From NCBI GenBank assembly GCA_000004985.1, contig GG738860.1: a stretch of DNA of 64,000 nt, one strand, 5' to 3'. The stretch is from Naegleria gruberi. Its lineage: Eukaryota. Below, in pieces: positions 3,197-47,328 of this stretch. How positions within the stretch are numbered: position 1 is the first letter of the stretch; every line of letters begins with the position of its first letter. Made by a program: the position numbers and the translations under genes. The notes beneath the pieces were generated by a model. That model saw only the letters and a program-made list of their open reading frames with translations. It had not been told where the DNA came from and did no database searches.

Positions 3197-3306
3197 ACTG
3201 TTTGTTTTAGTACAGAGATCTTAGTTACAATAATTCACTAATTAGCCGCTTAACTTGAATACCTAAACATTTAATTTTCGGAGTTAAAACTCCCATCTTT
3301 AAAAAA

Positions 3307-4185: not shown

Positions 4186-4224
4186 ATTAATAATCAATAA
4201 TTCTAACTTTGCAAGTTATCATAA

Positions 4225-9271: not shown

Positions 9272-9391
9272 TTTTTTTGATTAGTTTTTTATTTTGTAAT
9301 TTAAATTTAAATTTCAAATTTGGAGGGTTGTGCCATTTTTGGAAATTTAATCTATTGCAGAAGATTTTTTTAATTTTTAATAATATTATAT

Positions 9392-13287: not shown

Positions 13288-13289
13288 AC

Positions 13290-13721
13290 CTAAGCAGTTT
13301 CTCTATTCTGTTTAAACTTTTCCAATGTTGCAACCTTTTCCTTTTGAACATCTTGTAAATTCTTTAATTGTTCTCTATTGAATTCTAAAGAAATCATTAA
13401 ATCCTCTTCATTCAATCCACCAGGGAAGAATAAATGTTTGGTTTCATCTCTAGCGTAGGGTGTATAAAATTCGGGATAATCTATTGTTGGGAAGGCACCT
13501 GGCGAAGCATCCCACTTTTGTTCAATCTTGTATCGTTCCCAAAGTGCAACAAATATTGCCACACTCCATGTCAATAACATGGATGGAATGAACCCCTGAT
13601 AGAGAAATCTATTTTCATGTCTATTCCGAAGTCTTCTCACACTCTGATCTTCAAACAAACTTGCATAAACCTCATGTTTATGTCTGAATAGATAAAATAA
13701 TCGTTTTCCAATTCTTGTCAT
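13290..13721 (-). CDS. Hypothetical 143-aa single-pass membrane protein (possibly a mitochondrial inner-membrane accessory subunit)
   Basis: Clean single ORF with one hydrophobic helix (FIPSMLLTWSVAIFVALW) and a charged C-terminal coiled segment. No confident family assignment. Confidence 0.35.
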   Translation of the reverse strand: MTRIGKRLFYLFRHKHEVYASLFEDQSVRRLRNRHENRFLYQGFIPSMLLTWSVAIFVALWERYKIEQKWDASPGAFPTIDYPEFYTPYARDETKHLFFPGGLNEEDLMISLEFNREQLKNLQDVQKEKVATLEKFKQNRETA

Positions 13722-13841
13722 TTTTTAATTCTCTTCTCCTTTTCTCAAACATCATCACGGAATGCAATTATTATTTAATAAATATTGTTGAACAGGTTAT
13801 TTAATTATTAAAAAAGAATAATAAATATATAATTTAAAAAA

Positions 13842-15320: not shown

Positions 15321-15325
15321 ATTAT

Positions 15326-17284: not shown

Positions 17285-17338
17285 TTTTTAGATTGAAAAA
17301 TTGTAAACAATTATAACATAATAATAATGTGAAACAAT

Positions 17339-20042: not shown

Positions 20043-20837
20043 TACAAAGTAATAGTATACAAAATGATGTTCTAATTAAATTTTCTTATTGTAGGAAGAT
20101 CCCAACAATTTGTGAAACTAATGTGAAAGTACAATTCAACGTTCTTGATGATGATGGAAAACTGTAGTAATAATAACTATTACCAACACAACTACTACAG
20201 AAAAACTTTTCCAAAAAACGTTTGTTGTTGTTGATCGTTGAACACAAATAAATATTCTTCAAAATGGAGAATTTTTGCTACAGCCAACAAGAGCGTAAAA
20301 TGTTGTATTTTTTTTGACCCTTGTCGCGGTGTGTTCTCCCTCTATTTATAGTGGAGCCAAAAATGGAGCGATGGGTTTTAGCTTTAGTCAACCGCGCTGA
20401 TGAATCCCCACTTACCATCAAAAATGATGTTGGCCACTACTTTTACTGTTCGGGTAGTTGGTTAGTCCATCACTAGACATCAAATCACCAAAACAAACCA
20501 CCACCAACAATATTTTAAAGTTGAAGAGAGTATTTTCTAGTTGGAATATTTTACAACAACAATGCGAGTTGGAAATCGATATTTTCTACAACATGAAATT
20601 TATTCTTCTAGAATGGAAAAATTGATAAGGTTTCAAATAGGAAAGAAGATTCTCAGATATTTAATTTCATCAAATTTAGCAAGTTGATTATGAATTTATT
20701 ACAATAAGAAAAAAAATAACATCAATACTTATTGATACAACCTTGTGAACATCACTTTCTGATAAAAAATTTTTAATTAGAAATTCTAATTGGTTGAAAC
20801 AAACTACTAGGTGAAAGTGTAAAATAATTGTTGGAAA

Positions 20838-22362
20838 ATGTTGGCCATTCATCATCATCACAAACAACAAGAACACGAATTGGAAAGTCTAAAACAAAAT
20901 TATAAATTTAATATTGAAGCAGTTTTTGATCATGAAAGTGCTCGTGATTGTTTCCGAAAGTTTTTAAAGGATAATTTGAATGAAGATCCTTTCATGTTTT
21001 ATGAAATGGTTGAAAAGTATCAAAAAACAAGATTGGACAAGAATAGATTTGATATGGCTGTGGAAATTATGAATACTTTTATTGTTGTGAGTGCCAAACA
21101 TGAATTAAACTTGTCAATGACTATTAGAAATGATATTCTAAAGAATTGGAAGGTGATTCAGGAGCTAAATGAAGGGAAATCTGCTGAATTAATGGAATGT
21201 CCAACTGACTTGTTCCAAAAAGCTCAGAATGTCATCTTTTCCGAATTGAAACAAGATAATTTTCCAAGATTTATCGATTCTGAACAATTTGTAAAATATT
21301 TAAAGAAGGAAGCTAGAAAATCACAATTCAAGGGCTCACCAGCAACATTGTTAGACTTGTTGGGATCGAAAAAGGCAATGGAAAGGTCAGATAGTGGTCT
21401 ATCACATGAATTGACTGAATCCGGCTCTTTGGAAGACATGTCAGTGGTAGAAAACAAACCTTCAACTATTGCAGATAATGATAGACCTCTTGTTGATCCA
21501 CATTCTGTCTACATTTCATCAAAGGATTATGATATTGTGAATGAATTGATTTCTTCATTGAATGATAGTAGTAGATGGAAAGTAGTTGAAGAAAAGACAG
21601 GTATGAAAACATTGACCAGTGCTCATAATTATTATCTGAACCCATCAGATGGAGCTCTTCCTTTAATTTGTTTCACTGGTCTCGCTAAGGGAAATCACAA
21701 GGAATTATTTAATTTGATTTTTTCACAACATTTCGAAAAGAAAATGAGTGCTCTCCAAAAGAGGAAATTACAATTGGACTATATCAAAATTAATCCAGAG
21801 AATGGTGTGGATTATCCTAATTCAATAATTTACTCGGAACTCGATGTATGTATTCTTTTCAATTCTCAAATAATAATTAATTGAATTATTACAACAGACT
21901 CACTTTCCAATATCTAAAAGAGACCTAGTACTAGCCAAGACAGTTATACCAGATCTTTACAATCCAGAAACTGATGATTTTGATCGATATTCCATAATTC
22001 AGAAACCATGCACTCATCAAGATGCTCCAATCTCTAAGGAATTTATCAGAGTTTCACTCTTCTCAGCAATAATTGTAGAGAAAAAGACTAATGACACTTT
22101 GAGATACTACATGTTTGATTTTATGGATTTGAAAGGAAAAGTTCCAAAGAAACTCTTATCAGGAATTGCACGTTTTGCTGCTAAGGAATTTCATAAATAT
22201 CTCCAAAAACAATTTATCAATCCCAGAGATGGACGAATCAAATCACCCTCAGCCGATTCACCAACAGAAGAAGAATTATATAGCTCTGAAGGAATGGTTG
22301 AGTTGCTTCATGATCATATCAATTACATTCGAGAACACATTCTCCCAAAGAATACACTCTAA
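20838..22362 (+). CDS. RGS-domain protein with C-terminal START/Bet-v1-like lipid-binding domain, 2 exons (paralog A)
   Basis: Exon 1 is 20838..21845 (ends ...SELD at a GTATGT donor). The intron 21846..21897 is 52 nt. Exon 2 is 21898..22362. RGS signature: FDHESARDCFRKFLKDNLNEDPFMFYEMVEKYQK. The C-terminal exon (...YYMFDFMDLKGKVPKKLLSGIARFAAKEFHKYLQKQF) looks like a START domain end. A paralog lies at 49633..51190 on the minus strand. Confidence 0.65.
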
Positions 22363-22981
22363 TTTGTCTAAATTTAATTATGTTGTGAAGGACAAGTTTT
22401 TTGATAAACATAAATTCAAAGAGATTTATTATTGGAATCATAACTAAGGAAAGAAAGCATGTTATATGATGTTTGAAGTTTCAATTTCGATTTGATCAGA
22501 AAATAGAAAATGAGAAACCAAAACTTGCATCCATCAATTCAGGAGTTAAATATTCAATTTATAGAAGGGTGATCAACCTAATCAATATCTTCAAACAAAA
22601 CCTGAACCAACAAGATTCTGTCTTCGTTGCCTTCACTGTTCATACAGTCAAAGACTGTAGCGGGATTGTCGTCATATTCCTGGCAGGCTTCCCGTCCAAT
22701 GAAACCTAAAAGAATATCCAAAAATTAATGTTACTAAATTGTTAATAACTTAATTACTGAAAGTTTGTATTGAGTTGGTCGTGGATCGATTACAGAGCTT
22801 AATAGGTTAACCACTTTAAGTATTACTAAGTAGCATTAAGTTTTGCAAAGAAGTTCCATATTCTTTATATTCATTGCATTGATTTACCTTTGCTATTAAT
22901 CGTGACTCGTTATATTTGGAAAAGATTCGTCGTGCCAATGCTATCATGTTAATGGACACAATGGAAGATGATGAACTGAAT

Positions 22982-23100
22982 GGCTACGGCCATATCACGA
23001 TGAATGCACCTCATCCCGTCCGATTTGAGAAGTTAAGCATCGTCGAGCCACATCAGTACTGAGGTTGGAGACAACTTGGGAACCTGTGGTGCTGTAGTCT
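22982..23100 (+). rRNA. 5S ribosomal RNA gene (copy 1)
   Basis: GGCTACGGCCATATCACGATGAATGCACCTCATCCCGTCCGATTTGAGAAGTTAAGCATCGTCGAGCCACATCAGTACTGAGGTTGGAGACAACTTGGGAACCTGTGGTGCTGTAGTCT is 119 nt. Helix I pairs 5' GGCTACGG with 3' CTGTAGTC. It is very similar to D. discoideum 5S (CATCCCGTTCGATCTGATAAGT...AGTACTCTGGTTGGAGACAAC...GGGTGCTGTATACT). A T5 run follows at 23114..23118, consistent with a Pol III terminator. Confidence 0.85.
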
Positions 23101-23617
23101 ATTTAAATTCAACTTTTTAGATGTCGATTTTCAGAACAATTTGAAAGTTCAATAAACTTGTGAATAATTAATGCTTCAAAGCTTATAAAAAGTTTAACCA
23201 CAATTATTAATAGATTTTAAATTAATTGAATACATAGAGAGATCAACATTCATCATTCCATAGCAATCACACTGCAATCCAACAACCAAAGGTATCAGCA
23301 AAAGGCAACTTATGGGTTAGGGTATTCGATTGCTGTGAAGTGGGTACACTAGCTCAGTTGTCTTTTTTTCTATTTCCCAATCAATGAGTGCTTTTGGAGT
23401 ATGTTGATACATTTATTATTTACAAACTTTTTTGTTACAAATTTCAATCGAAATGCCTGAGAAATTTTTTAAAATGAAAGTGCCCAATCATTGATTATTT
23501 TCTCTATGGTTTTAAGAAATGAAACTTTGAAAATTGAATCTTAGCTAGATTACATATAATTTATCATATAATGATAAAATTAAATGTCAAATATAGGAGA
23601 TGGAGTCAAAAATTAAT

Positions 23618-23688
23618 CTCGAGTGCCGGGAATTGAACCCGGGTCGCCAGAGTGACAGTCTGGAATGCTACCACTATACCACACCCGA
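23618..23688 (-). tRNA. tRNA-Asp (anticodon GUC), copy 1
   Basis: Minus strand: TCGGGTG TG GTAT AGTGGTA GCAT T CCAGA CTGTCAC TCTGG CGAC CCGGG TTCAATT CCCGG CACTCGA G. It has a 7-bp acceptor stem (one G-U), a perfect anticodon stem, U33, GTC anticodon, A37, and a T-arm with TTCAATT loop. One D-stem mismatch. A T5 run follows the 3' end. Confidence 0.8.
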
Positions 23689-24251
23689 TTTCACATGTTG
23701 TATCACCAGTAACAGTATTTGTAGTTGTTCAAACGGATTACCATAAAAGGAACCTTAGTGTTTCTTTTTAATATAATTATACTTACATATATGTATACCT
23801 ACTGAGAATGGATCCATACAATCGATTACTCCAACGAACTAAATTTTGAATCTGCTAATTGTCAACAAATGATATTGTTAAACAAAATACAAACACTATG
23901 AAATGCACAACTTCATTCTAAACATTGTATTAGAAAAATTGGAAATAGGAAAGAATCGGTAAAATTGTCTCATAGTGATTCTCTCTTGTTTATGGCCATA
24001 AATACTTTTTTGGACAGTTTCGTATGAAATTGGGTTTTGTAATATTTATTTTCTATGACATGTCATGCATAATTTCTTGTACTTGCCATCTCAATGGCAC
24101 ACAAGGGTCACAACAAATTTTTTCTTCAAGAGGCACCACCTCCTTCTTGCTTGTTATTTCCAAATTTAAACTATGCGTGCTGTCAATAAACTGAAAAGCA
24201 AATGTCAAATGTTTTCTCTTCATCGCTTAAAAAAACAAACACACAATAACA

Positions 24252-27200
24252 ATGGCAATTGGAATCTCGTTCATTCCTTTGGCTAGTTACACAATTTTGT
24301 GTATTATCATGCTAATTGTTGTTGGTGGTGGACATGTTTCGTCAACATTAGCTGAAGAAACTAAACCTTTCCCAGTAATGAGAATGTTTAATTTGAAAGC
24401 AAGCCATCATTCCACCTCCACAACAAGTGATGATTCCATCTCCATGGTTTTAGGAAAGATTAAACAACTTCCTTTCATCCCAACTACCATGCACCCATTC
24501 ACCAGCAATTCCCAATTGACCAAAGCAATCGCTTCAGATCCTTACGATTTGGCTGAATATCCTCACTATAAGAAAGTCTCTGAACAACAAGTTAGAAGCA
24601 TGTACTCTAATATTGTCAATAGCAAAGCATCTAAAAGAAGTATCAAGAAAAATCTTGACATGTTGGTTACAGAAAGTGTTGATTATGTCAACTTGAATGA
24701 TGTTTCTCGTTTTTCAGCAATGGGATCTTTGCATAGATATTCTGTTGATGCAAATGTTTTATCAGGTGTTGCTTCATTGGATTATGAGCAAAATGTATGG
24801 GATGTCACATGTTCTGTCCTGTCAGATGAACAAACTGAAATTGTTGTTGATTTTGCAAATGGTCATACAACTGCCATGAAATGGGTACCAGGTACAAGAA
24901 TTATCATTGGAAAGCAATGGAATTGTTATGGTGATTTGACTGATCAACTTTACAATAAGGATCAAGCAAGATTTTACTTGATTTTGACAAGATCTATTAT
25001 CGTAACAGATGAAAACATGTTGAGAATTAAATTCCTCACACAACCACTCACCTTCTCTCAATTATTTATGAATGGTAGAGTTGAATATTCTTCCACACCT
25101 CTCTTGACAGAATCTTTGGACGAAACTAATGTTTTCACTCAAGGTGCATCTTCAAGAAGTCTCAGATCAAGAAAGGCACAATTTTCTTACACTAAAAGAA
25201 TGGCAGCATTCAATTTCAATTACAATGATGCAACTGGTCAACCTGTCAATGATGAAGTTACCATGTATGATCAGGATGGTTTGAAAATTATTTGTGAAAA
25301 GTGTTATGCTTATTTGAATACCGAATTCAGAGTAGAATTTGAGTTTTCATGGACTCAATTACAAGTTACCAAGGCAGAAGCATCTGTCGGTGGTCAATGG
25401 AAGGCAACTGCCAATGTCAAGGCCAGTATTACAAAATCTTTCCAAAAAAAGATTGGTCCAAACACTATTATTCAAACTCCACCAATTGGTTTGACATTCT
25501 TCATTTGGGTAATTCCAGTTTATGTAGATTTCACTCCAAAACTTCAATATTCCTTCAATTTCCAATTGACTGGTACTTTGGAATATTCCAGAAAGTTTGA
25601 TATGGCCTATGAGAAGTATATTGGTTTCTCATATACACCAGAAGCAGGTTATAATAAGGTTACTAGAGGTGATGATGCCATTTCCTTCACAAGTTCTTCA
25701 CCTGGTCTTCGTATTGAGCTCGATGGGTCAATTGAGGTTGCACTCATTCCAGCATTGGATATTACTTTCTATAAATTGGCAACAGTTTCGATTGGAATTG
25801 TGCCATCTTTGAAAGCAGATTTACATGCAGAAGGTATCATTTCCTCACTTGATAATTACAAGGCATTCGTTAGTGTCAAATGTTCTTACAAGATTGGTTT
25901 GACATTTGATGTTTTAATCAAGAACTTTGAATTTACTTTATTAGATTATCAACCAATTGAAAAATTGAGTGGAACCTATTCCATCCAATCAGCATCCTAC
26001 AAGGCAATCAATCCAAATGATCAAATCTATTCCAAAGATAATTTACTCCCAACCATTCCAGACACAGCAACAACTTCCAACACCATGTTCTCATTCGAAA
26101 TTAGTGGATTGACAGGTAATTACTACATGGAATATCAATATCAAGATATCAAATTGAGCCCATTGCTATACAGAACTGCACCAACTCAATCCTGTGTTTC
26201 AGGTTCTGTCTGTAAAATTGCCGAATTGAAACCTGACTTTAGTTATTCCTATCTTTACTTTAGATTTTTGAAGGATGTTCCATTGTGGTTTGATGATACT
26301 GTATTGGTGGATTATATTGAGCAGAAGAATTATGTTACTACTCAATCGAGTCAAACCATATTTGGTAATACTAATGCTAAAGTTATTGTAAAGCCAACTG
26401 ATTTGACAATTTCATTTTCGAATACTCCAACTAATTCGTTTAAATTACCAACTGGTATTAGTACTATTAATGTAAAATTATCTCCAATCAATAGTTTGTA
26501 TTACATTTCATTTACAACAGATAGTGCCATTTCCATCACAAACGTTGCCATGCAATTTAGCTCAGATTCGAATGGTTTCCATTATGCTTTCAATGGAACT
26601 CTTCCTGGAGGTACAATTTTAATTTCAAATTCTGTTTCTGACAATAATTTGAAATTCCATCAATATTTCTCATTTGATTTGACAAAGGAGAAACAAACTT
26701 TAACTCCGGCACCAACTCCTATTACAAGTATGAATGCTATTAGTTCATTCCTACAAGTGGTAAAGAAGAATTCTCCAAGATATGCCGTCTCTGCAAAGAT
26801 TAAAGGTAATTTCGTTGTCATGATCTTTGAAGGTTGGGACAATGGAGTTTCTTTCGTTCAAACTAAAGGAAGAAAGTTTAGTCAAACCTCAATTCCTATT
26901 AAGAATGGAAATGTCACTCTCACTGAGCCATTATCTTATTACTGGACTATTTCCATGGAAAATGACTTTGGTTCATCGAGTCATTACATTGCAGCTCAAT
27001 TCCTTCCTGTTGATTCGTATGGTTTCATATTGGAAAGTGTCAAGATTGATCCATATACTGAATTGAGTGTTTCAAGTTCTAATACTTTGGAGGATGTAGA
27101 CAATGCCATTATTAATCAAGTTTCTAGCGTTAATTTGTATCCTTACATGGCAGTTTCTAGACCAGATTCGAATAGTTTCACTGCCAGATTAGGTAACTCT

Positions 27201-28610
27201 GTATTTGATGTTTTTAACAATTTAAAGTCTCAAATCTCACTTTCCATTCAAAAATCTGCTCGTATCCCCATTGACAATTCCTATCTCAACGCCGACGGCT
27301 CATTAGCTCTTTCACTTTCCTCCTCAGCCAACGTTACAATCTTTAACAATTACAAATTATTGAATGGTATGGCATCTGTTGGAAAGAAATTCGAAAGTGC
27401 ACTTTCATTTGCAGTTTCATGTGATACCTTATTGAGTGTTATTGGTGATTTGAGTAGATCTGGTGATATTTTCATTAGAATTTTGGATGGGTTGACCAAT
27501 AGAGCTCTTGAAAATAGAGGATTTTCCATTAGTTTGGAATTGGCAAAACCAAACTCTGATATAGTTTCAATTCATATGGTTAATTCCAAATCTGGTTTGA
27601 ATGAGGCATTGTTTAATGTTGATTCACCTTCTAAAATCTTGAGTTCATGCAATTCGAATCCAACCTATTATGTCAGAGTTATTCTCACACGTTTGGATGT
27701 TTCTCTCTCAAGTAAGACAGTTCAAGTAGAATTCTCGTTCAGTAAGAAGGTTCTTAGCACTCTCCCACAAACAAGAAGTATTCTATCCGAATCCATTGAT
27801 CCAAAGACGAAAGGTATTTCCATTTTGGATTTGAGTGATTTAATTCAAAAAGAAAAGAGTTTGGGAAGTATTGGTATTGTATTGCAAGCTAATACTCAAA
27901 ACTGCAATATTGACATGTATATTAATAGTAATAATGCAAGTGCTCCTCCATCTTTCTTTGATCCAGCAACAATATTCGATTCCACTTCAAGAAATTCCCT
28001 CACTTATGAAGCATTGCCAATTTCCTTCCTTTCTTCATATGGTTCCAGTGTCATGCTTTATTCTGAAAGTGCATGTACTTTTGATTTATCCTATTCTCAA
28101 TTGAAACTTACCTATTTGACAATGAAATTTATAGATTTGAAGGGAAGTGCAGTTGATAGTGTGATTTTCTATTCAAACACCTCAACAACCATTCAATTAC
28201 TTATCAATGATGAAAATCATTCATTCGAAAAGACTTGGGTAACTTCACTTCAATCAAATCCATCATTGATTTTCTCAATTTTCAAATCTACAAAGAAATC
28301 AGATGGAACAGCAGCTAAATTGAGTGATTATTTCAAGAGTGCTGTTTGTAATTTAGTTAATGCTCAAACTCTTCAATTCGAAATGATTCCAAAGAGTGGA
28401 GTTGTCTTTACCAATATTTTATCAATTGAATTCAATGCTCAAAATTCAATGTTCACATCAAGATATAATTTGAGATCATCAAATGTTGTTAGTTTGGGAG
28501 AGAATGTTCAACCTATTGTTTACAAATCTACATCTTCTGGTCAACCAAAGGGAGGACAATCTGGAAGAATGAATGGAGGAAATGGCTTGAATTTGTTGTT
28601 GGTTTGTTAA
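24252..28610 (+). CDS. Large secreted or surface protein of unknown function (1452 aa; signal peptide, S/T/N-rich, possible GPI-type C-terminus)
   Basis: Single uninterrupted 4.36-kb ORF. N-terminal signal peptide or anchor: MAIGISFIPLASYTILCIIMLIVVGGGHVSS. It is rich in predicted beta-strand-like alternating segments with many N-x-S/T sites. It ends ...GQPKGGQSGRMNGGNGLNLLLVC, a short hydrophobic tail after a Gly/Ser-rich stretch. No known domain was recognised by eye. Its 5' flank is the shared 5S/tRNA repeat. Confidence 0.6.
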   Translation: MAIGISFIPLASYTILCIIMLIVVGGGHVSSTLAEETKPFPVMRMFNLKASHHSTSTTSDDSISMVLGKIKQLPFIPTTMHPFTSNSQLTKAIASDPYDLAEYPHYKKVSEQQVRSMYSNIVNSKASKRSIKKNLDMLVTESVDYVNLNDVSRFSAMGSLHRYSVDANVLSGVASLDYEQNVWDVTCSVLSDEQTEIVVDFANGHTTAMKWVPGTRIIIGKQWNCYGDLTDQLYNKDQARFYLILTRSIIVTDENMLRIKFLTQPLTFSQLFMNGRVEYSSTPLLTESLDETNVFTQGASSRSLRSRKAQFSYTKRMAAFNFNYNDATGQPVNDEVTMYDQDGLKIICEKCYAYLNTEFRVEFEFSWTQLQVTKAEASVGGQWKATANVKASITKSFQKKIGPNTIIQTPPIGLTFFIWVIPVYVDFTPKLQYSFNFQLTGTLEYSRKFDMAYEKYIGFSYTPEAGYNKVTRGDDAISFTSSSPGLRIELDGSIEVALIPALDITFYKLATVSIGIVPSLKADLHAEGIISSLDNYKAFVSVKCSYKIGLTFDVLIKNFEFTLLDYQPIEKLSGTYSIQSASYKAINPNDQIYSKDNLLPTIPDTATTSNTMFSFEISGLTGNYYMEYQYQDIKLSPLLYRTAPTQSCVSGSVCKIAELKPDFSYSYLYFRFLKDVPLWFDDTVLVDYIEQKNYVTTQSSQTIFGNTNAKVIVKPTDLTISFSNTPTNSFKLPTGISTINVKLSPINSLYYISFTTDSAISITNVAMQFSSDSNGFHYAFNGTLPGGTILISNSVSDNNLKFHQYFSFDLTKEKQTLTPAPTPITSMNAISSFLQVVKKNSPRYAVSAKIKGNFVVMIFEGWDNGVSFVQTKGRKFSQTSIPIKNGNVTLTEPLSYYWTISMENDFGSSSHYIAAQFLPVDSYGFILESVKIDPYTELSVSSSNTLEDVDNAIINQVSSVNLYPYMAVSRPDSNSFTARLGNSVFDVFNNLKSQISLSIQKSARIPIDNSYLNADGSLALSLSSSANVTIFNNYKLLNGMASVGKKFESALSFAVSCDTLLSVIGDLSRSGDIFIRILDGLTNRALENRGFSISLELAKPNSDIVSIHMVNSKSGLNEALFNVDSPSKILSSCNSNPTYYVRVILTRLDVSLSSKTVQVEFSFSKKVLSTLPQTRSILSESIDPKTKGISILDLSDLIQKEKSLGSIGIVLQANTQNCNIDMYINSNNASAPPSFFDPATIFDSTSRNSLTYEALPISFLSSYGSSVMLYSESACTFDLSYSQLKLTYLTMKFIDLKGSAVDSVIFYSNTSTTIQLLINDENHSFEKTWVTSLQSNPSLIFSIFKSTKKSDGTAAKLSDYFKSAVCNLVNAQTLQFEMIPKSGVVFTNILSIEFNAQNSMFTSRYNLRSSNVVSLGENVQPIVYKSTSSGQPKGGQSGRMNGGNGLNLLLVC

Positions 28611-28789
28611 TGACAATCTTGTTGAATATTGTTTTATTGTTGTAATTGAATAAAAACTTCATCTATTCATTGAATGATCATTGTGTATTAATGAATAATA
28701 ATAATTAATATTGAATTTAAATTGAAACACGGAAATGAAATTCTAAGATAGTAATTCCGAATACAAAAACAAAGAAAGACAAAACAAAA

Positions 28790-28870
28790 CGTTGAGGATG
28801 GGATTCGAACCCACGCGGATTACTCCACCAACTTAGCAGGCTGGCGCCTTAACCACTCGGCCACCTCAAC
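28790..28870 (-). tRNA. tRNA-Ser (anticodon GCU), class II with long variable arm
   Basis: Minus strand: GTTGAGG TG GCCGAGTGGTTAAGGC G CCAGC CTGCTAA GTTGG TGGAGTAATCCGCG TGGGTTCGAATCCCATCCTCAAC G. It has a 7-bp acceptor stem, GCT anticodon with U33 and A37, and a T-arm identical to eukaryotic tRNA-Ser. It is followed by TTTT. Confidence 0.85.
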
Positions 28871-29154
28871 TTCATGGCTAAACTAAGAAAATACTAAAGT
28901 CATGGTACGACAATCAAACCCTTAATGAACAGCTTCTTTTTCGTATCAACTGTTGAGGTGTTATTGGTTAGATTGTTTAATTGTTCAATACTGATTTAAG
29001 CTGTTTCTTAGGAGTATCACTTATCTTTCATTTGGTGGCCAAAGAATCTGTGTTCAACATACTGCTATAGATTAGATTCAGCCATTCAAATTTCAACAAA
29101 AGAAAGTATTGATTGATACCTCCGATTTCAGATAATATTTAATAAATTGCTGTT

Positions 29155-29820
29155 TTATTGAAGAACCTTCCCACAAGTCAACATGGAATGATCTTTACAA
29201 ACATTAGTTCGTCCATTCAAACTATACGTAAAACTATTAGCACTGCAACTTTCATCCTTCAAATAATAAGACCTTGTCCAAGTTGTTTGATTGCAGGAAA
29301 CCCTTTCGAATTCCTTTCCAGTAACTTGTTCACAATAATTTACATCTTCTCCAGCAATTGAAACCAAATTCCCAGAACAACTATTCTCTGCATCTATATA
29401 TTCAAATGAATAGGTGTACAATAAAGGAACTACAAGTTGTGGAATATTTCCACATCCGACATTTTGCATTCCACATTCATTCTTGTGAAATTTCCAATCG
29501 TAGACAGCATCACAATATTGGCAGTTACTGTCTACACAGTATGTATAGATGGTGGCTGAATCCTTTCCACAAACTGCCTTCATGTATTTGAAATGGGATG
29601 AGCTTTCAAAGTTTTGGAAACAAGTTCCATTTTGTCCATAAACAGGATAGATTTCAATAGCTGAAATAGATTGTTGATTGCATGAATTATCATGGTAGTA
29701 GATGGAGTAGGCGAAAGTGGTTGGTTTTTCGAGGGGTTGTTTTGCATGCAAGAAGGAAATGATTGCAAGAATGATGAAGAAGGTACAGAGGGAATAGTTT
29801 AGTTTCATCATTTTTTTCAA
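29155..29820 (-). CDS. Secreted cysteine-rich protein (221 aa, ~20 Cys), unknown family
   Basis: Signal peptide MKKMMKLNYSLCTFFIILAIISFLHA followed by a Cys-rich mature region (CNQQ...CFQNF...CGKDSATIYTYCVDSNCQYCD...CGMQNVGCGN...). Single ORF. Antisense small ORFs were rejected. Confidence 0.5.
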   Translation of the reverse strand: MKKMMKLNYSLCTFFIILAIISFLHAKQPLEKPTTFAYSIYYHDNSCNQQSISAIEIYPVYGQNGTCFQNFESSSHFKYMKAVCGKDSATIYTYCVDSNCQYCDAVYDWKFHKNECGMQNVGCGNIPQLVVPLLYTYSFEYIDAENSCSGNLVSIAGEDVNYCEQVTGKEFERVSCNQTTWTRSYYLKDESCSANSFTYSLNGRTNVCKDHSMLTCGKVLQ

Positions 29821-30569
29821 GTACTGATGTTCATCTACGCCAAATTAGCAAATATGTGTTCGAATGCCAAATCATGTCCTTCCTTATCATCTCCGTAGAA
29901 GAAGAGGTGTTTTGAAATAATGTCCATGCACAACCACATAGTGGTTCTATTTACGACGAATACCAAGCTTCTTTAACGAATATCCTTGCGAAGAGAAAGT
30001 TATAAATATTACAATACATCATCGCTTCAAAGGGGTTGTGCTTGCTGATATTGAATGATGTTGTATTATTGTCTTGTTGTTGTTACTCCGTTCATTGTCC
30101 ACAGTCAGGAAAAGTATTATAAATTTTTTTCTATATTATTAAATTATTATTTTGACAAAGAGGAGCAAGCAGGAACGAAACAAAACCAACAAAATGTATT
30201 CAATTTAATTGTTCAGGGTAAAGAAGAAAGAAAATTACTTGATATTGATTTTGACTTTTTTATTTAAATGTTTTTGGATTTTTAATTTTTTAAACAAGTC
30301 ACTCTTCTAGGATTATGTAAATATCAAGTTATTGTTGTTAGACTTGATAAATCCGAGAATCATCATTGGACCTGTTCTTTCAAAGTATGAGTAAATATAT
30401 CTTGAATAGTAACTACATGTTGTGTTAAAATTTGTATAAAAACTCTACAAGTGCTTTCGCAAAGTAATCTTAAACTGTACCAGTGATATGTGAAATGAAA
30501 TGGTTAATCAACAAAGATTGTGATCAGTTTCAACACAATCTTCTCCGCATCATTTCTCTAGTTTGATGT

Positions 30570-31334
30570 TTAAGCATTGGTCAATCTAGTCTTCAAGACA
30601 CGATCTTCCAAACAAACACAAAAGCTTGGAATATTGACAGTCTTTGGAAGTGGGCTGTTAATAGCAAAACAATCCCAATCATCTTCTTCTCTATCTTCAT
30701 CATTTACCAATTCAACTTCAATTTCATCACCTCTGACAGCAATAACTTTACCCAATTTACCTTGTAATTGTGGATCGACACTTTGGAGTAAAGCCATTTC
30801 ATCATCAACATTGATGAGGACTGTATCATTCTTCTTGAGTAATCTGCTTGTATTAGTATTAGAAACAAATCTCTTAATAGTTGATGATGAAGAAATAATT
30901 GAAGCACTTCTTGTAGATTGCATCTTCTTTTGCTTGTGAATACCTCTTGCTGTTGTATTATTTGATGATTGCATCATGGACATGAAGGAAATTCCCTGAT
31001 GTGGTTTATAAGATGAGGAGTACATATCCATTGAGGAATCATTATTATTCATCATTTGGTTACCAGTGGCATTAACTCTTTTCAAGAACATTTTGTATTG
31101 CGTTGTTGTTGGTTGCGTTGTTTTTTTTCGATGTGAAAATGTCTGATCGTTTTCCATAAATTTATTGCGTTTGTGCAAGTTCCACAAGCAACTGGCTTCC
31201 GCTGCGTGTTCAAAATCGAGCTTAAAATAGAACTTCAAAAATGTTTTGCTGCATACGGAATTCGTTTGGGCGCCAAAGAATTTGATGAGTGTGGAAAAAG
31301 GATTCCGTGAGAGTGAATCTTTTCTGCAAATCAA
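30570..31334 (-). CDS. Hypothetical protein (S/N/T-rich, acidic C-terminal beta-barrel-like segment); start codon uncertain (internal Mets at MENDQ / MFLKRV possible)
   Basis: 254-aa minus ORF. The C-terminal segment LINVDDEMALLQSVDPQLQGKLGKVIAVRGDEIEVELVNDEDREEDDWDCF looks globular. The remainder is low complexity. No family was assigned. Confidence 0.35.
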   Translation of the reverse strand: MICRKDSLSRNPFSTLIKFFGAQTNSVCSKTFLKFYFKLDFEHAAEASCLWNLHKRNKFMENDQTFSHRKKTTQPTTTQYKMFLKRVNATGNQMMNNNDSSMDMYSSSYKPHQGISFMSMMQSSNNTTARGIHKQKKMQSTRSASIISSSSTIKRFVSNTNTSRLLKKNDTVLINVDDEMALLQSVDPQLQGKLGKVIAVRGDEIEVELVNDEDREEDDWDCFAINSPLPKTVNIPSFCVCLEDRVLKTRLTNA

Positions 31335-31835
31335 AAAGATTGATCATCAATCTTTATGAAGCTATTACAATAATTGATTGTATTATCATTATTCAAATGA
31401 TCAACCACAAAAGATACAGTAAAGGTACCATTCCGAATATCACGACTATATGATTTGGTAAAGGTAGAGATGACTGATAGTTGAACAGCTTTCCATCTCA
31501 ACTGAAATTATCGGAAATTAATCTTCATCCAACAACATTCAATAATATTATTATTGAAAACAGTCTGCTTCATCCACTTTGAAATTAATAGAAACAACTT
31601 CTTCTACAACATTCAATATAATATTGAAAACAGCACTGCTTCATTGCCTTACTTGGTTTGGCTTCATTATAAACGCACTTTTCATTCCCTCACTAGAACT
31701 AGGGCTTTAAGGATTAGAACAGTACAACTATGGTTCATTGTTCGTGTCTCCTCTCCCTAACCTCAATAATGCAGGAATAATAATCCAACAACCAGAAGGA
31801 TAGAACATCAAGAGAAAAAAAGCTTTTGAGAAGAG

Positions 31836-33029
31836 ATGAATTATCTCCTTCAGGGATTTTCAGAAAAATCTTCATCTACTAACCAATCAATAATGAAAAA
31901 CAAGTCAAGAAAGGGGTGGAGCAATGCACTGTTCCTCCTTAACTACTTTATCATCATGATGATAATTTTACAAATATCAACCAATTACTACTGTTTGGCC
32001 ATTCCGAATGACAAGAACAAAACCCCTACATGTAAGAATGGAAGGCTTATTACAAATACCACTACTCCTCAACAATTTGCCTCAACCAAATGTTCATGTT
32101 TTAAGGGATATTCGGGAAGTGATTGTAACATACCAGTTTGTTTTGGATTGAAGGCAAGTTCAAAATCTGTATGTGGTGGCAAAGGTAACTCCAAATGTAT
32201 TGCTCCAGATACATGCATTAAAATCAATGAAGCAACAATCATGAAGCGATTTCAATCCAATGCTAAAGAGGACAGTTCATGTTCCAATCGTGGTCAAATG
32301 AGTAATGGTCAATGCATATGTAGTGAGGGATTCTATGGAGAATCTTGCGAATATTCTAATTGTTATGATACAGCTAGCCAGCTCACTTGTAGTGGAAGAG
32401 GAGAATGCTCCTCTGATAATATTTGCACTTGTAGAGAGAATGATATGTTTGGCGATAGATGTCAATACACACTCCCAGATAAGATTTATCAAAATGATGT
32501 TTGTGGGTCATGTATCATTGTGGCTGGTGTCAGTGGAGATGCTATTCCATCGAAGTATTCACTCTTGAACAATCCTACTGGACTATTTGTGGATGAAACA
32601 ACTGGTTTCATCTTTTTCGCAGATCAAGGCAATGCAAAGGCAAGAGTTCTCACAAGGGATGATACTATCTATTCGATTGCCTCTGTTTCCACACCAACTA
32701 GTATAGCATTCGATAAGAAAACAAGAGATGTCTATATTGGTACTAGAAATGGACTATTCAAATTGAACAGCAAGAGAGAACTCTCTAAATTGAACAGCTT
32801 GTATTGTAGCAGTGTCATTGTTAATGGTCAGGGACATGTTGTGTTTACACAGGGACCATATAACAAGATTTCAAAACTTGTAAATGGTGTGCAAGTTGAG
32901 GTGGCAGGGGATAATGACGGCGAAGGAAAATATGATGGTGACAACAAAGTGGCAACGGATGCAAGTGTCAACAATCCAGCTTATTTGAGCTACCATGCTG
33001 ACTCTGATACAATTTACTTTATGGACAGA
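31836..33029 (+). CDS. N-terminal fragment of a receptor-like protein: signal peptide, tenascin-type EGF-like Cys repeats, start of an NHL-repeat beta-propeller; truncated by assembly gap. Probably the 5' part of the receptor kinase resuming at 43232
   Basis: Begins MNYLLQGF..., with a hydrophobic signal or anchor (WSNALFLLNYFIIMMIILQISTNYYCLA). EGF-like modules follow (CSCFKGYSGSDCNIPVCFG..., CICSEGFYGESCEYSNCYD...CTCRENDMFGDRCQ). NHL-like blades come next (LLNNPTGLFVDETTGFIFFADQGNAKARVL...NNPAYLSYHADSDTIYFMDR). The frame is then cut by the 50-N gap at 33030. Confidence 0.6.
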
Positions 33030-33079
33030 NNNNNNNNNNNNNNNNNNNNNNNNNNNNNNNNNNNNNNNNNNNNNNNNNN
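33030..33079. other. Assembly gap (50 N)
   Basis: A run of exactly 50 N separates the receptor gene fragment from the second 5S/tRNA unit. Confidence 1.
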
Positions 33080-33087
33080 AACTGAAT

Positions 33088-33206
33088 GGCTACGGCCATA
33101 TCACGATGAATGCACCTCATCCCGTCCGATTTGAGAAGTTAAGCATCGTCGAGCCACATCAGTACTGAGGTTGGAGACAACTTGGGAACCTGTGGTGCTG
33201 TAGTCT
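33088..33206 (+). rRNA. 5S ribosomal RNA gene (copy 2)
   Basis: Identical to 22982..23100 (offset 10106 bp). Confidence 0.85.
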
Positions 33207-33723
33207 ATTTAAATTCAACTTTTTAGATGTCGATTTTCAGAACAATTTGAAAGTTCAATAAACTTGTGAATAATTAATGCTTCAAAGCTTATAAAAAGTT
33301 TAACCACAATTATTAATAGATTTTAAATTAATTGAATACATAGAGAGATCAACATTCATCATTCCATAGCAATCACACTGCAATCCAACAACCAAAGGTA
33401 TCAGCAAAAGGCAACTTATGGGTTAGGGTATTCGATTGCTGTGAAGTGGGTACACTAGCTCAGTTGTCTTTTTTTCTATTTCCCAATCAATGAGTGCTTT
33501 TGGAGTATGTTGATACATTTATTATTTACAAACTTTTTTGTTACAAATTTCAATCGAAATGCCTGAGAAATTTTTTAAAATGAAAGTGCCCAATCATTGA
33601 TTATTTTCTCTATGGTTTTAAGAAATGAAACTTTGAAAATTGAATCTTAGCTAGATTACATATAATTTATCATATAATGATAAAATTAAATGTCAAATAT
33701 AGGAGATGGAGTCAAAAATTAAT

Positions 33724-33794
33724 CTCGAGTGCCGGGAATTGAACCCGGGTCGCCAGAGTGACAGTCTGGAATGCTACCACTATACCACACCCGA
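33724..33794 (-). tRNA. tRNA-Asp (anticodon GUC), copy 2
   Basis: Identical to 23618..23688. Confidence 0.8.
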
Positions 33795-34261
33795 TTTCAC
33801 ATGTTGTATCACCAGTAACAGTATTTGTAGTTGTTCAAACGGATTACCATAAAAGGAACCTTAGTGTTTCTTTTTAATATAATTATACTTACATATATGT
33901 ATACCTACTGAGAATGGATCCATACAATCGATTACTCCAACGAACTAAATTTTGAATCTGCTAATTGTCAACAAATGATATTGTTAAACAAAATACAAAC
34001 ACTATGAAATGCACAACTTCATTCTAAACATTGTATTAGAAAAATTGGAAATAGGAAAGAATCGGTAAAATTGTCTCATAGTGATTCTCTCTTGTTTATG
34101 GCCATAAATACTTTTTTGGACAGTTTCGTATGAAATTGGGTTTTGTAATATTTATTTTCTATGACATGTCATGCATAATTTCTTGTACTTGCCATCTCAA
34201 TGGCACACAAGGGTCACAACAAATTTTTTCTTCAAGAGGCACCANCTCCTTCTTGCTTGTT

Positions 34262-37200
34262 NNNNNNNNNNNNNNNNNNNNNNNNNNNNNNNNNNNNNNN
34301 NNNNNNNNNNNNNNNNNNNNNNNNNNNNNNNNNNNNNNNNNNNNNNNNNNNNNNNNNNNNNNNNNNNNNNNNNNNNNNNNNNNNNNNNNNNNNNNNNNNN
34401 NNNNNNNNNNNNNNNNNNNNNNNNNNNNNNNNNNNNNNNNNNNNNNNNNNNNNNNNNNNNNNNNNNNNNNNNNNNNNNNNNNNNNNNNNNNNNNNNNNNN
34501 NNNNNNNNNNNNNNNNNNNNNNNNNNNNNNNNNNNNNNNNNNNNNNNNNNNNNNNNNNNNNNNNNNNNNNNNNNNNNNNNNNNNNNNNNNNNNNNNNNNN
34601 NNNNNNNNNNNNNNNNNNNNNNNNNNNNNNNNNNNNNNNNNNNNNNNNNNNNNNNNNNNNNNNNNNNNNNNNNNNNNNNNNNNNNNNNNNNNNNNNNNNN
34701 NNNNNNNNNNNNNNNNNNNNNNNNNNNNNNNNNNNNNNNNNNNNNNNNNNNNNNNNNNNNNNNNNNNNNNNNNNNNNNNNNNNNNNNNNNNNNNNNNNNN
34801 NNNNNNNNNNNNNNNNNNNNNNNNNNNNNNNNNNNNNNNNNNNNNNNNNNNNNNNNNNNNNNNNNNNNNNNNNNNNNNNNNNNNNNNNNNNNNNNNNNNN
34901 NNNNNNNNNNNNNNNNNNNNNNNNNNNNNNNNNNNNNNNNNNNNNNNNNNNNNNNNNNNNNNNNNNNNNNNNNNNNNNNNNNNNNNNNNNNNNNNNNNNN
35001 NNNNNNNNNNNNNNNNNNNNNNNNNNNNNNNNNNNNNNNNNNNNNNNNNNNNNNNNNNNNNNNNNNNNNNNNNNNNNNNNNNNNNNNNNNNNNNNNNNNN
35101 NNNNNNNNNNNNNNNNNNNNNNNNNNNNNNNNNNNNNNNNNNNNNNNNNNNNNNNNNNNNNNNNNNNNNNNNNNNNNNNNNNNNNNNNNNNNNNNNNNNN
35201 NNNNNNNNNNNNNNNNNNNNNNNNNNNNNNNNNNNNNNNNNNNNNNNNNNNNNNNNNNNNNNNNNNNNNNNNNNNNNNNNNNNNNNNNNNNNNNNNNNNN
35301 NNNNNNNNNNNNNNNNNNNNNNNNNNNNNNNNNNNNNNNNNNNNNNNNNNNNNNNNNNNNNNNNNNNNNNNNNNNNNNNNNNNNNNNNNNNNNNNNNNNN
35401 NNNNNNNNNNNNNNNNNNNNNNNNNNNNNNNNNNNNNNNNNNNNNNNNNNNNNNNNNNNNNNNNNNNNNNNNNNNNNNNNNNNNNNNNNNNNNNNNNNNN
35501 NNNNNNNNNNNNNNNNNNNNNNNNNNNNNNNNNNNNNNNNNNNNNNNNNNNNNNNNNNNNNNNNNNNNNNNNNNNNNNNNNNNNNNNNNNNNNNNNNNNN
35601 NNNNNNNNNNNNNNNNNNNNNNNNNNNNNNNNNNNNNNNNNNNNNNNNNNNNNNNNNNNNNNNNNNNNNNNNNNNNNNNNNNNNNNNNNNNNNNNNNNNN
35701 NNNNNNNNNNNNNNNNNNNNNNNNNNNNNNNNNNNNNNNNNNNNNNNNNNNNNNNNNNNNNNNNNNNNNNNNNNNNNNNNNNNNNNNNNNNNNNNNNNNN
35801 NNNNNNNNNNNNNNNNNNNNNNNNNNNNNNNNNNNNNNNNNNNNNNNNNNNNNNNNNNNNNNNNNNNNNNNNNNNNNNNNNNNNNNNNNNNNNNNNNNNN
35901 NNNNNNNNNNNNNNNNNNNNNNNNNNNNNNNNNNNNNNNNNNNNNNNNNNNNNNNNNNNNNNNNNNNNNNNNNNNNNNNNNNNNNNNNNNNNNNNNNNNN
36001 NNNNNNNNNNNNNNNNNNNNNNNNNNNNNNNNNNNNNNNNNNNNNNNNNNNNNNNNNNNNNNNNNNNNNNNNNNNNNNNNNNNNNNNNNNNNNNNNNNNN
36101 NNNNNNNNNNNNNNNNNNNNNNNNNNNNNNNNNNNNNNNNNNNNNNNNNNNNNNNNNNNNNNNNNNNNNNNNNNNNNNNNNNNNNNNNNNNNNNNNNNNN
36201 NNNNNNNNNNNNNNNNNNNNNNNNNNNNNNNNNNNNNNNNNNNNNNNNNNNNNNNNNNNNNNNNNNNNNNNNNNNNNNNNNNNNNNNNNNNNNNNNNNNN
36301 NNNNNNNNNNNNNNNNNNNNNNNNNNNNNNNNNNNNNNNNNNNNNNNNNNNNNNNNNNNNNNNNNNNNNNNNNNNNNNNNNNNNNNNNNNNNNNNNNNNN
36401 NNNNNNNNNNNNNNNNNNNNNNNNNNNNNNNNNNNNNNNNNNNNNNNNNNNNNNNNNNNNNNNNNNNNNNNNNNNNNNNNNNNNNNNNNNNNNNNNNNNN
36501 NNNNNNNNNNNNNNNNNNNNNNNNNNNNNNNNNNNNNNNNNNNNNNNNNNNNNNNNNNNNNNNNNNNNNNNNNNNNNNNNNNNNNNNNNNNNNNNNNNNN
36601 NNNNNNNNNNNNNNNNNNNNNNNNNNNNNNNNNNNNNNNNNNNNNNNNNNNNNNNNNNNNNNNNNNNNNNNNNNNNNNNNNNNNNNNNNNNNNNNNNNNN
36701 NNNNNNNNNNNNNNNNNNNNNNNNNNNNNNNNNNNNNNNNNNNNNNNNNNNNNNNNNNNNNNNNNNNNNNNNNNNNNNNNNNNNNNNNNNNNNNNNNNNN
36801 NNNNNNNNNNNNNNNNNNNNNNNNNNNNNNNNNNNNNNNNNNNNNNNNNNNNNNNNNNNNNNNNNNNNNNNNNNNNNNNNNNNNNNNNNNNNNNNNNNNN
36901 NNNNNNNNNNNNNNNNNNNNNNNNNNNNNNNNNNNNNNNNNNNNNNNNNNNNNNNNNNNNNNNNNNNNNNNNNNNNNNNNNNNNNNNNNNNNNNNNNNNN
37001 NNNNNNNNNNNNNNNNNNNNNNNNNNNNNNNNNNNNNNNNNNNNNNNNNNNNNNNNNNNNNNNNNNNNNNNNNNNNNNNNNNNNNNNNNNNNNNNNNNNN
37101 NNNNNNNNNNNNNNNNNNNNNNNNNNNNNNNNNNNNNNNNNNNNNNNNNNNNNNNNNNNNNNNNNNNNNNNNNNNNNNNNNNNNNNNNNNNNNNNNNNNN

Positions 37201-43200: not shown

Positions 43201-43231
43201 NNNNNNNNNNNNNNNNNNNNNNNNNNNNNNN
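34262..43231. other. Assembly gap (8970 N)
   Basis: Continuous N run. All giant ORFs reported across it (34130..43276, 34159..43266, 34171..43431, 34197..43394, 34200..45386, 34232..43288) are poly-X artefacts. Confidence 1.
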
Positions 43232-47305: not shown

Positions 47306-47328
47306 GTGAGCAGTGGTTCTTCTTCCAA

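What the first reader, a model, noticed from the sequence alone, without database searches (positions are those of the whole stretch)
22974..34261. Perfectly identical 1.18-kb 5S rRNA + tRNA-Asp(GUC) unit present twice, 10.1 kb apart; second copy is a gap-flanked island
22974..24143 and 33080..34261 are identical base for base, including 5S, the tRNA-Asp and ~450 bp of flanking AT-rich spacer. Zero divergence over 1.18 kb in non-coding, AT-rich DNA is unusual unless the duplication is very recent, homogenised, or a scaffolding artefact. Copy 2 sits between a 50-N and an 8970-N gap. The unit is probably a multi-copy family that breaks the assembly, so its true copy number and arrangement are unknown. 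If both copies are real, they are direct repeats flanking the secreted-protein genes and two more Pol III genes. That is a substrate for unequal crossing-over.
Basis: seen in the sequence. Interest (0 to 1): 0.6.

Follow-up and report, generated by a model that had tools for sequence, protein, structure and literature searches.

The report
Redundant 5S/tRNA-Asp contig in scaffold gap
The "second copy" of a 5S rRNA + tRNA-Asp unit is a 1.18-kb contig that lies wholly inside a neighbouring contig of the draft Naegleria gruberi assembly and was dropped into a scaffold gap within a receptor-kinase gene, so it is most likely an assembly redundancy and not a real duplication.

Summary
Window 22974-24155 equals 33080-34261 over 1182 bp, apart from one N. 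Each copy carries a 5S rRNA gene (+) and a tRNA-Asp(GUC) gene (-). Copy 2 is an entire contig bounded by a 50-N and an 8970-N gap, with no unique base of its own.

The window is Naegleria gruberi NEG-M (JGI draft) scaffold_16:416001-480000. A published genome-wide table of 279 5S hits lists exactly this pair, 10,106 bp apart. Only these two hits share this pair's score and hit length, so the 1.18-kb unit looks two-copy at most. The 5S gene itself is multi-copy.

Three things point to a scaffolding artefact:
- The island interrupts a + strand EGF-NHL-EGF-REJ-TM-kinase gene. The reading frame runs into the 50-N gap and out of the 8970-N gap, at a repeat phase that needs only about 10 missing residues.
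- Introns here are about 78 nt.
- The 8970-N gap equals the distance from the end of copy 1 to the end of its contig (8874) plus 96. That is what results if copy 2 is really copy 1 written out a second time.

Best reading: redundant contained contig (about 0.6). Main rival: a perfect, very recent 10.1-kb tandem duplication (about 0.2). Only reads can decide. Interest is low.

The parts
22974..24155 (.). Copy 1 of the identical block, embedded without a break in a long contig (contig A, window 1..33029). It lies in the intergenic region between an RGS-domain gene and NAEGRDRAFT_79262.
22982..23100 (+). 5S rRNA gene, with a T5 run 14-18 nt downstream. It equals scaffold_16:438985-439096 in the published table.
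   Evidence: Rfam RF00001, 105.4 bits, full length; sequence; PMC3369914 Table S1
23618..23688 (-). tRNA-Asp(GUC) gene, convergent with the 5S gene and 517 bp from it. A T5 run follows 7-11 nt after its 3' end.
   Evidence: ARAGORN; Rfam, 57.1 bits; sequence
24252..28610 (+). 1452-aa secreted or membrane protein NAEGRDRAFT_79262 (EFC46039.1). It starts 97 bp after the end of the identical block.
28790..28870 (-). tRNA-Ser(GCU), the only other Pol III gene between the two copies.
31836..33029 (+). 5' part of a receptor-like gene: signal/anchor, EGF repeats, then NHL blades. The frame is open right up to the contig end ('...DTIYFMDR').
33030..33079 (.). 50-N scaffold gap. The round number suggests a nominal or minimum gap.
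   Evidence: the nominal-gap reading is inference
33080..34261 (.). Copy 2, which is the whole of contig B (1182 bp). Every determined base is identical to copy 1. The 5S gene starts at contig position 9, and there is an N 17 nt from the right end.
33088..33206 (+). 5S rRNA gene of copy 2. It equals scaffold_16:449091-449202 in the published table.
33724..33794 (-). tRNA-Asp(GUC) gene of copy 2.
34262..43231 (.). 8970-N scaffold gap. Its length equals 33029-24155 (8874) plus 96.
   Evidence: arithmetic
43233..44786 (+). Continuation of the same-strand reading frame out of the gap (contig C, 1557 bp). It holds about 7 NHL blades and then EGF repeats, and has no start codon context at its 5' end.
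44789..44960 (.). 172-N gap inside the EGF array of the same gene.
44963..49434 (+). Rest of the gene: 5-6 EGF repeats and a REJ domain (to 47332), then a transmembrane segment and a protein kinase domain (47329/47356-49434) after a frame change.

Best explanation
There is one genuine locus: a 5S rRNA gene and a convergent tRNA-Asp(GUC) gene in the spacer between an RGS-domain gene and NAEGRDRAFT_79262, on Naegleria gruberi NEG-M scaffold_16.

The 'second copy' is a small leftover contig (B, 1182 bp, about the size of one to three Sanger reads). It was assembled from reads of this same locus, possibly from the other allele.

B lies inside contig A, so the scaffolder could not place it there. 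When the scaffold was written out in linear order, B came after A with a nominal 50-N gap. The distance from B to the next contig (C) was kept as estimated from mate pairs. That distance is the true distance from window 24155 to the start of C.

The result is a false 10.1-kb direct repeat, about 10.2 kb of spurious length, and an apparent interruption of a receptor-kinase gene whose two halves really almost abut.

Shown: identity, containment, gap flanks, same-strand frames open into both gaps, and the gap arithmetic. Inferred: how the scaffolder behaved, that 50 N is a floor value, and that only about 29 nt are really missing between A and C.
For: 1. Containment. B has no unique base; all 1181 determined bases equal A[22974-24155], and both ends of B are gaps. 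The sequence left of copy 2 (end of A) does not resemble the sequence left of copy 1. No junction sequence of a duplication is present.

2. Gap arithmetic. 33029-24155 = 8874, and the gap after B is 8970, i.e. 8874+96. If B is overlaid on copy 1, contig C starts roughly 30-100 bp after the end of A.

3. Gene continuity.
- 31836-33029 (+) is open into the 50-N gap and carries EGF then NHL repeats.
- 43233-44786 (+) is open out of the 8970-N gap and carries NHL then EGF repeats.
- The frame continues through EGF/REJ to a TM-kinase part.
- A ends at node 20 of a 56-node NHL-blade profile ('IYFMDR'). By eye against the profile consensus, C starts at about node 31 ('TGTIAKVF'); hmmalign left this part unaligned.
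- That leaves 10 residues, or 29 nt, missing. 29 also satisfies the codon phase of both ends.

4. Introns here are short. One seen in an RGS paralog is about 78 nt. A >10-kb intron holding Pol III genes is therefore unlikely.

5. The region is poorly covered. Contig C is only 1557 bp and sits between two gaps.

6. Assembly context.
- The window is the Sanger-era JGI draft of N. gruberi.
- 279 5S hits are dispersed over that assembly, and about 40 of them are on high-numbered, mostly tiny scaffolds.
- Some of those scaffolds begin right at the 5S gene (scaffold_975: 9-125; scaffold_594: 1-86). In B the 5S gene also starts at position 9.
- Small leftover contigs carrying a 5S gene are thus a recurrent product of this assembly.

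7. This class of error is documented. 'Duplicated contained contigs' are mostly <2 kb, and in the PCAP/Celera assemblies 30-52% were shown by mate pairs to be false (2 of 80 in the Arachne dog assembly) (PMC2864568).

8. An N sits 17 nt from the right end of B, where A has a clear C. That fits a thinly covered read tail.
Against: Published false contained contigs usually differ from their twin because they come from divergent haplotypes: median identity is 98.1%, and few exceed 99.5%. Here identity is 100%, in an organism reported to be heterozygous. Why an assembler would fail to merge identical reads is not explained.

The three contig ends (end of A, start of B, start of C) could also mark the fork created by a real tandem duplication. 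The gap arithmetic fits that case equally well.

Naegleria homologues carry long NHL arrays of variable length. More blades could therefore be missing between A and C than the minimal 10 residues.

No reads, depths or mate pairs could be examined.
Confidence: 0.6

Rival explanations
1. There is a real, very recent and still perfect tandem duplication of about 10.1 kb (unit about 22974..33079). Its breakpoints lie 8 bp or slightly more upstream of the 5S gene and inside the NHL region of the receptor-kinase gene. The assembler collapsed the two copies. Contig A stops at the fork, B is the start of the second copy as far as fork-crossing reads reach, the 8970-N gap stands for the rest of copy 2, and C is the right flank.
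For: The 100% identity is expected. The period of 10,106 matches the space provided (50+1182+8970 = 10,202) to within about 1%. The end of A, the start of B and the start of C all fall where the fork would be. B is about as long as reads crossing a junction could reach.
Against: No junction sequence exists. Reads crossing a junction would carry NHL-gene sequence to the left of 22974-equivalent and would have joined A to B without a gap. A random breakpoint within 8 bp of a Pol III gene start is improbable a priori. The neighbouring 172-N gap and the 1.5-kb contig C show that low coverage alone can explain a break at the end of A. The gap arithmetic does not favour this reading over the artefact.
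Confidence: 0.22
2. A real second copy of just the 5S/tRNA-Asp segment sits where it is drawn. It would lie between two separate same-strand genes, an EGF-NHL gene ending in the 50-N gap and an NHL-EGF-kinase gene starting in the 8970-N gap. The flanks on either side would be unassembled.
For: The gap sizes are only estimates. Naegleria has many NHL-EGF paralogs, so two adjacent paralogs are conceivable. Pol III genes are common in intergenic spacers in this window.
Against: The first gene would need its stop, and the repeat its left boundary, hidden in a nominal 50-N gap. It would need the 8970 ~ 8874 match and the blade-phase and codon-phase fit of the two open frames to be coincidences. It does not explain why B contains no diverged flank at either end.
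Confidence: 0.08
3. The 1.18-kb unit is a many-copy dispersed family. B is its collapsed consensus, parked in this gap because of ambiguous mate links.
For: The 5S gene has 279 hits in this genome, and many small scaffolds carry one. The N near the end of B could mark a site that differs between copies.
Against: In the genome-wide 5S table, only this pair has the similarity value 0.7458 with a 112-nt hit, so this 5S variant is seen at only two places. Copy 1 is assembled straight through into unique flanks on both sides. The window holds no other copy. The 8970-N gap matches the geometry of copy 1's own locus.
Confidence: 0.05

Closest known systems
Duplicated contained contigs / false segmental duplications in whole-genome shotgun assemblies (Kelley & Salzberg 2010, PMC2864568)
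   Same: A small contig (<2 kb) aligns along its whole length to a nearby, larger contig of the same scaffold. It sits between gaps and creates an apparent recent segmental duplication.
   Different: The published cases come mostly from haplotype divergence (median identity 98.1%, few above 99.5%). This one is 100% identical. The defining mate-pair test could not be run here.
Dispersed 5S rRNA genes of Naegleria gruberi (279 BLAST hits, not linked to the rDNA plasmid; PMC3369914)
   Same: Copy 1 is an ordinary member. It is a full-length 5S gene in an intergenic spacer, and both copies are already in the published list (scaffold_16:438985 and 449091).
   Different: The published count treats the pair as two genes. 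Here the second is probably the first counted twice. In that table only this pair has this similarity value and a 112-nt hit, against 117 nt for most entries.
[quoted passage not shown]
   Same: A 5S gene outside the rDNA lies close to a tRNA gene.
   Different: Here the two genes are on opposite strands, convergent and 517 bp apart, and each has its own T-run terminator. There is no co-transcription architecture.
Entamoeba tRNA/5S tandem array units (PMC2652664)
   Same: tRNA and 5S genes share a repeated unit that troubles assembly.
   Different: There is no tandem array of short units and no short tandem repeats in the spacers. At most two copies exist, 10.1 kb apart.

Membership tests
Duplicated contained contig (assembly false duplication) | The contig aligns over its entire length to a nearby contig of the same scaffold | tested here: met
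   33080-34261 = 22974-24155; 1181/1181 determined bases identical; 10,106 bp apart
Duplicated contained contig (assembly false duplication) | Mate-pair distances fit better when the contig is overlaid on its twin than at its drawn position | not testable with these tools
   No reads are available. As an indirect proxy, the gap after B (8970) equals the distance from copy 1 to the end of contig A (8874) plus 96. A true tandem duplication gives the same number.
Duplicated contained contig (assembly false duplication) | Single-copy read depth over the twin | not testable with these tools
   No read data
Duplicated contained contig (assembly false duplication) | Slight divergence (about 98%) from allelic differences, as in most published cases | tested here: not met
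   0 mismatches and 1 N; published median 98.1%. This is typical of the class but not required for a redundant contig.
Recent tandem segmental duplication | A junction where the end of the unit abuts the start of the unit | tested here: not met
   A 50-N gap lies where the junction would be. The end of A and the flank upstream of 22974 share no similarity. B has no extra bases on its left.
Recent tandem segmental duplication | The second copy extends beyond the first 1.18 kb | not testable with these tools
   The rest would lie in the 8970-N gap
Multi-copy dispersed repeat family (whole 1.18-kb unit) | Further copies elsewhere in the genome | tested here: not met
   None in the window. In the genome-wide 5S table, only the two members of this pair have this similarity value and hit length. 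This is indirect evidence, since the table is a 5S search and does not cover the spacer.
5S rRNA gene (Rfam RF00001) | Full-length match to the covariance model above the gathering score, plus a Pol III terminator | tested here: met
   105.4 bits against 38, model positions 1-120; TTTTT at 23114-23118
tRNA-Asp(GUC) | Cloverleaf with a GTC anticodon, a covariance-model match and a terminator | tested here: met
   ARAGORN; Rfam, 57.1 bits; T5 run 7-11 nt past the 3' end
Dicistronic tRNA-5S gene (Yarrowia type) | The tRNA lies directly upstream of the 5S gene on the same strand | tested here: not met
   Opposite strands, convergent, 517 bp apart
Entamoeba-type tRNA/5S array | Head-to-tail tandem units with microsatellite-like spacers | tested here: not met
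   TRF finds no array in 20000-33029 apart from a 27-bp stretch at 28429

The most novel reading that the evidence does not exclude
Both copies are real. N. gruberi NEG-M would then carry a brand-new, still perfect 10.1-kb tandem duplication. One breakpoint would lie within a few bases of the 5' end of a 5S rRNA gene. The other would lie inside a receptor-kinase gene, leaving a truncated extra gene copy. This would be a caught-in-the-act example of a Pol III gene marking a rearrangement breakpoint, and a substrate for unequal crossing-over.
Probability: 0.2. Interest if true: 0.3.

Novelty: not a real feature. Interest (0 to 1): 0.1.

Why it matters
The consequences are mainly practical.
- The published count of N. 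gruberi 5S genes probably includes at least one gene counted twice.
- Scaffold_16 is probably about 10.2 kb too long at this point.
- A large EGF-NHL-EGF-REJ-TM-kinase receptor gene is split by a spurious insert, so its gene models are likely truncated or missing.
- Analyses of segmental duplication, Pol III gene number or synteny that use this draft would inherit the error.

If the duplication were real instead, it would be an ordinary young tandem duplication of modest interest.

Tried and rejected
1. Independent assemblies.
- The 218-aa neighbour gave only one 2.5-kb ENA metagenome contig (L001). It is about 98% identical and comes from a related strain. It covers 28780-31285 and not the critical junctions.
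- Look-ups of small ORFs over the tRNA-Asp gene and over the right boundary found nothing.

2. An exact search for the last 24 nt of contig A in JGI metagenomes gave no hit.

3. A protein spanning the A|C join, searched in metagenome contigs, gave only distant bacterial NHL proteins at 30-50% identity and no ortholog.

4. Homology search.
- The 5' gene part had no homologues.
- Homologues of the 3' part are Naegleria paralogs with NHL arrays of variable length, so they cannot fix the number of missing blades.

5. I looked for short exact repeats at the contig ends that could explain the breaks. None of 14 nt or more occur in the window for the end of A or the start of C.

6. An early impression that the end of A resembles the flank upstream of copy 1 ('ATGGACA') did not survive alignment.

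7. I first guessed the organism was a dictyostelid, from the 5S sequence. The exact protein look-up showed Naegleria gruberi.

8. The Naegleria genome paper and a later review were not in the library. The assembler's gap conventions could therefore not be checked.
Full report
OBSERVATION

A base-by-base comparison shows that window 22974-24155 and 33080-34261 agree at all 1182 positions. The one exception is an ambiguous base, N at 34245 where copy 1 has C at 24139.

The window has four N runs: 33030-33079 (50), 34245 (1), 34262-43231 (8970) and 44789-44960 (172). Copy 2 is therefore exactly one contig, which I call B (1182 bp). A gap bounds it on each side. Its ends are contig ends and not biological repeat boundaries.

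Copy 1 lies inside a long uninterrupted contig (A, window 1-33029) with unique sequence on both sides. A sensitive self-BLAST finds no further copy in the window. It also finds no similarity between the sequence left of copy 2 (the end of A) and the sequence left of copy 1.

Each copy holds a full-length 5S rRNA gene on the + strand (22982-23100 and 33088-33206; 105.4 bits against a gathering score of 38). Each also holds a tRNA-Asp(GTC) gene on the - strand (23618-23688 and 33724-33794). The two genes are convergent and 517 bp apart, and each is followed by a T5 run.

Between the copies there is only one more Pol III gene, tRNA-Ser(GCT) at 28790-28870. An Rfam scan at E<=1 found no second one there.

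SOURCE OF THE WINDOW

Exact look-ups of window ORFs identify the source as Naegleria gruberi, on a scaffold of 536,960 bp:
- 24252-28610 is NAEGRDRAFT_79262 (EFC46039.1).
- 29155-29811(-) is NAEGRDRAFT_66047.
- 51981-53486 is EFC46041.1.

A published survey of 5S genes found 279 putative 5S rRNA genes in this genome by BLASTn, none linked to the rDNA (PMC3369914). Its Table S1 lists scaffold_16:438985-439096 and scaffold_16:449091-449202. Those two are 10,106 bp apart, exactly the spacing seen here. The window is therefore scaffold_16:416001-480000.

Two points follow from that table.
- These two entries are the only ones with similarity 0.7458 and a 112-nt hit. On the table's values, this 5S variant appears at only these two places in the whole assembly. 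The 1.18-kb unit is therefore not a many-copy family, although the 5S gene as such is.
- About 40 of the 279 hits lie on high-numbered, mostly tiny scaffolds. Several of those begin right at the 5S gene (scaffold_975: 9-125; scaffold_594: 1-86). In contig B the 5S gene also begins at position 9. Small leftover contigs that carry a 5S gene are thus a recurrent product of this assembly.

WHAT SURROUNDS COPY 2

The + strand ORF 31836-33029 starts with a signal/anchor sequence. It carries EGF repeats and then NHL-type blades, and it is still open at the last base of contig A.

A + strand frame is open from the first bases after the 8970-N gap (43233). It carries about seven more NHL blades and then EGF repeats. 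It continues across the 172-N gap into further EGF repeats and a REJ domain. After a frame change at 47330 it reaches a transmembrane segment and a protein kinase domain ending at 49434. The island of Pol III genes is therefore drawn in the middle of one receptor-kinase-like gene.

The blades follow the pattern '..LYFAD + 12 residues + G.I.TIAG'.
- A blade profile built from this gene and Naegleria homologues has the consensus LNLPVGVAVNSTGELYIADT-SNHRIRKISS-NGAITTIAG.
- Contig A ends at node 20 ('...DTIYFMDR').
- Contig C starts at about node 31 ('TGTIAKVF'). I placed this by eye, because hmmalign left it unaligned.
- The simplest join therefore lacks 10 residues.

Contig A ends on a complete codon, and contig C starts with the third base of a codon. 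The missing stretch must therefore be 2 mod 3 in length, and 29 nt satisfies both conditions. More whole blades could be missing, because Naegleria homologues have NHL arrays of variable length.

One intron seen in an RGS paralog in this window is short, about 78 nt with GT..AG ends. A 10-kb intron containing Pol III genes is therefore unlikely.

THE GAP ARITHMETIC

From the end of copy 1 (24155) to the end of contig A (33029) is 8874 bp. The gap drawn after copy 2 is 8970 N, which is 8874 + 96.

Suppose B is really the same DNA as copy 1. Its mate-pair distance to contig C is then 8874 plus the small true gap between A and C. A scaffolder that orders contigs by position would list A, B, C. 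It would find a negative gap between A and B and print a floor value; 50 is the only round gap size here. It would then print about 8.9-9.0 kb between B and C. That is what is seen.

The same numbers also arise if a 10.1-kb unit is truly duplicated in tandem and was collapsed by the assembler. The arithmetic therefore ties copy 2 to copy 1's own locus. That argues against a copy from elsewhere and against a separate insertion. It does not separate an artefact from a perfect tandem duplication.

WEIGHING THE READINGS

Redundant contained contig (about 0.6).
- It explains the containment and the absence of any junction or diverged flank.
- It explains the position inside a gene and the gap sizes.
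- It explains the small size of B, the N in what looks like a thin read tail, and the 5S gene at the contig start.
- It matches a documented class of error, 'duplicated contained contigs'. These are mostly under 2 kb, and in the PCAP/Celera assemblies 30-52% were proven false by mate pairs (2 of 80 in the Arachne dog assembly) (PMC2864568).
- The local region is poorly assembled anyway. Contig C is 1557 bp and sits between two gaps.
- Its weak point is the 100% identity. Published cases are mostly diverged alleles (median 98.1%), and Naegleria is reported to be heterozygous. I cannot say why identical reads were not merged. B could be the other allele in a locally homozygous stretch, with a structural difference just upstream of the 5S gene.

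True, very recent tandem duplication (about 0.2).
- It explains the perfect identity.
- It also explains why A ends, B starts and C starts at what would be the fork.
- However, reads crossing the junction should have joined A to B without a gap, and no junction sequence exists.
- It also needs a breakpoint within a few bases of a 5S gene start.

A real extra copy between two separate genes (about 0.08) needs the gap match and the blade and codon phase to be coincidences.

A many-copy unit family (about 0.05) is contradicted by the genome-wide table and by the clean assembly of copy 1.

COMPARISON WITH KNOWN SYSTEMS

The genes themselves are ordinary members of the dispersed Pol III gene set of N. 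gruberi.
- They do not have the Yarrowia dicistronic tRNA-5S layout, because they are on opposite strands and 517 bp apart.
- They do not form an Entamoeba-type array, because there is no tandem unit and no short tandem repeats.
- The duplicate belongs with assembly false duplications.

VERDICT

The biological duplication is probably not real. Only read-level data can settle it: Sanger traces with mates, the public Nanopore reads, or two PCRs. Interest is low.

Noticed in passing
window 20838-22362 (+) and 51190-49633 (-): Two inverted paralogous RGS-domain genes, 74% nucleotide identity over about 1.29 kb. An intron of about 78 nt with GT..AG ends was seen in the second (RGS2) copy. Each gene is followed by Pol III gene(s): 5S + tRNA-Asp after the first, tRNA-Thr(AGT) at 49487-49560 after the second. 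Together they bracket the whole region discussed here.
   Followed up: partly
window 47320-47360: The EGF/REJ reading frame ends at TGA 47330-47332. The TM-kinase frame opens at 47329 (first ATG at 47356) in another frame. This is either a one-base sequencing error in one receptor-kinase gene or two genes only 24 nt apart.
   Followed up: partly
window 44789-44960: A 172-N gap lies inside the EGF-repeat array of the same gene. The flanking frames need a gap length of 2 mod 3, but 172 is 1 mod 3, so the size is an estimate. The flanking contig C is only 1557 bp, which suggests a poorly covered or hard-to-assemble gene.
   Followed up: partly
window 56422-57096 (ORF 56416-57477, - strand): A coding tandem array of a 72-bp (24-residue) unit with 9.4 copies at 81% identity. 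A 216-bp super-period is also present.
   Followed up: no
L001 (ENA ERZ929261, contig k127_595665, 2525 bp) against window 28780-31285: A public 'metagenome' assembly holds a contig about 98% identical to this N. gruberi region and encodes the identical 218-aa protein. A close relative of NEG-M is therefore present in that sample. The contig ends 10 nt beyond the tRNA-Ser gene.
   Followed up: partly
PMC3369914 Table S1 (whole N. gruberi assembly): About 40 of the 279 listed 5S hits are on high-numbered, mostly tiny scaffolds, and some of those start at the 5S gene. Part of the published 5S count may be redundant leftover contigs like the one studied here.
   Followed up: no
window 17339-19639 (-): This is a Cyc8/Ssn6-type TPR co-repressor homologue. 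In the large protein database it matched at no more than 71% identity (fungi and amoebozoans), and no Naegleria entry was among the 120 hits listed, even though other proteins of this scaffold are present there.
   Followed up: no
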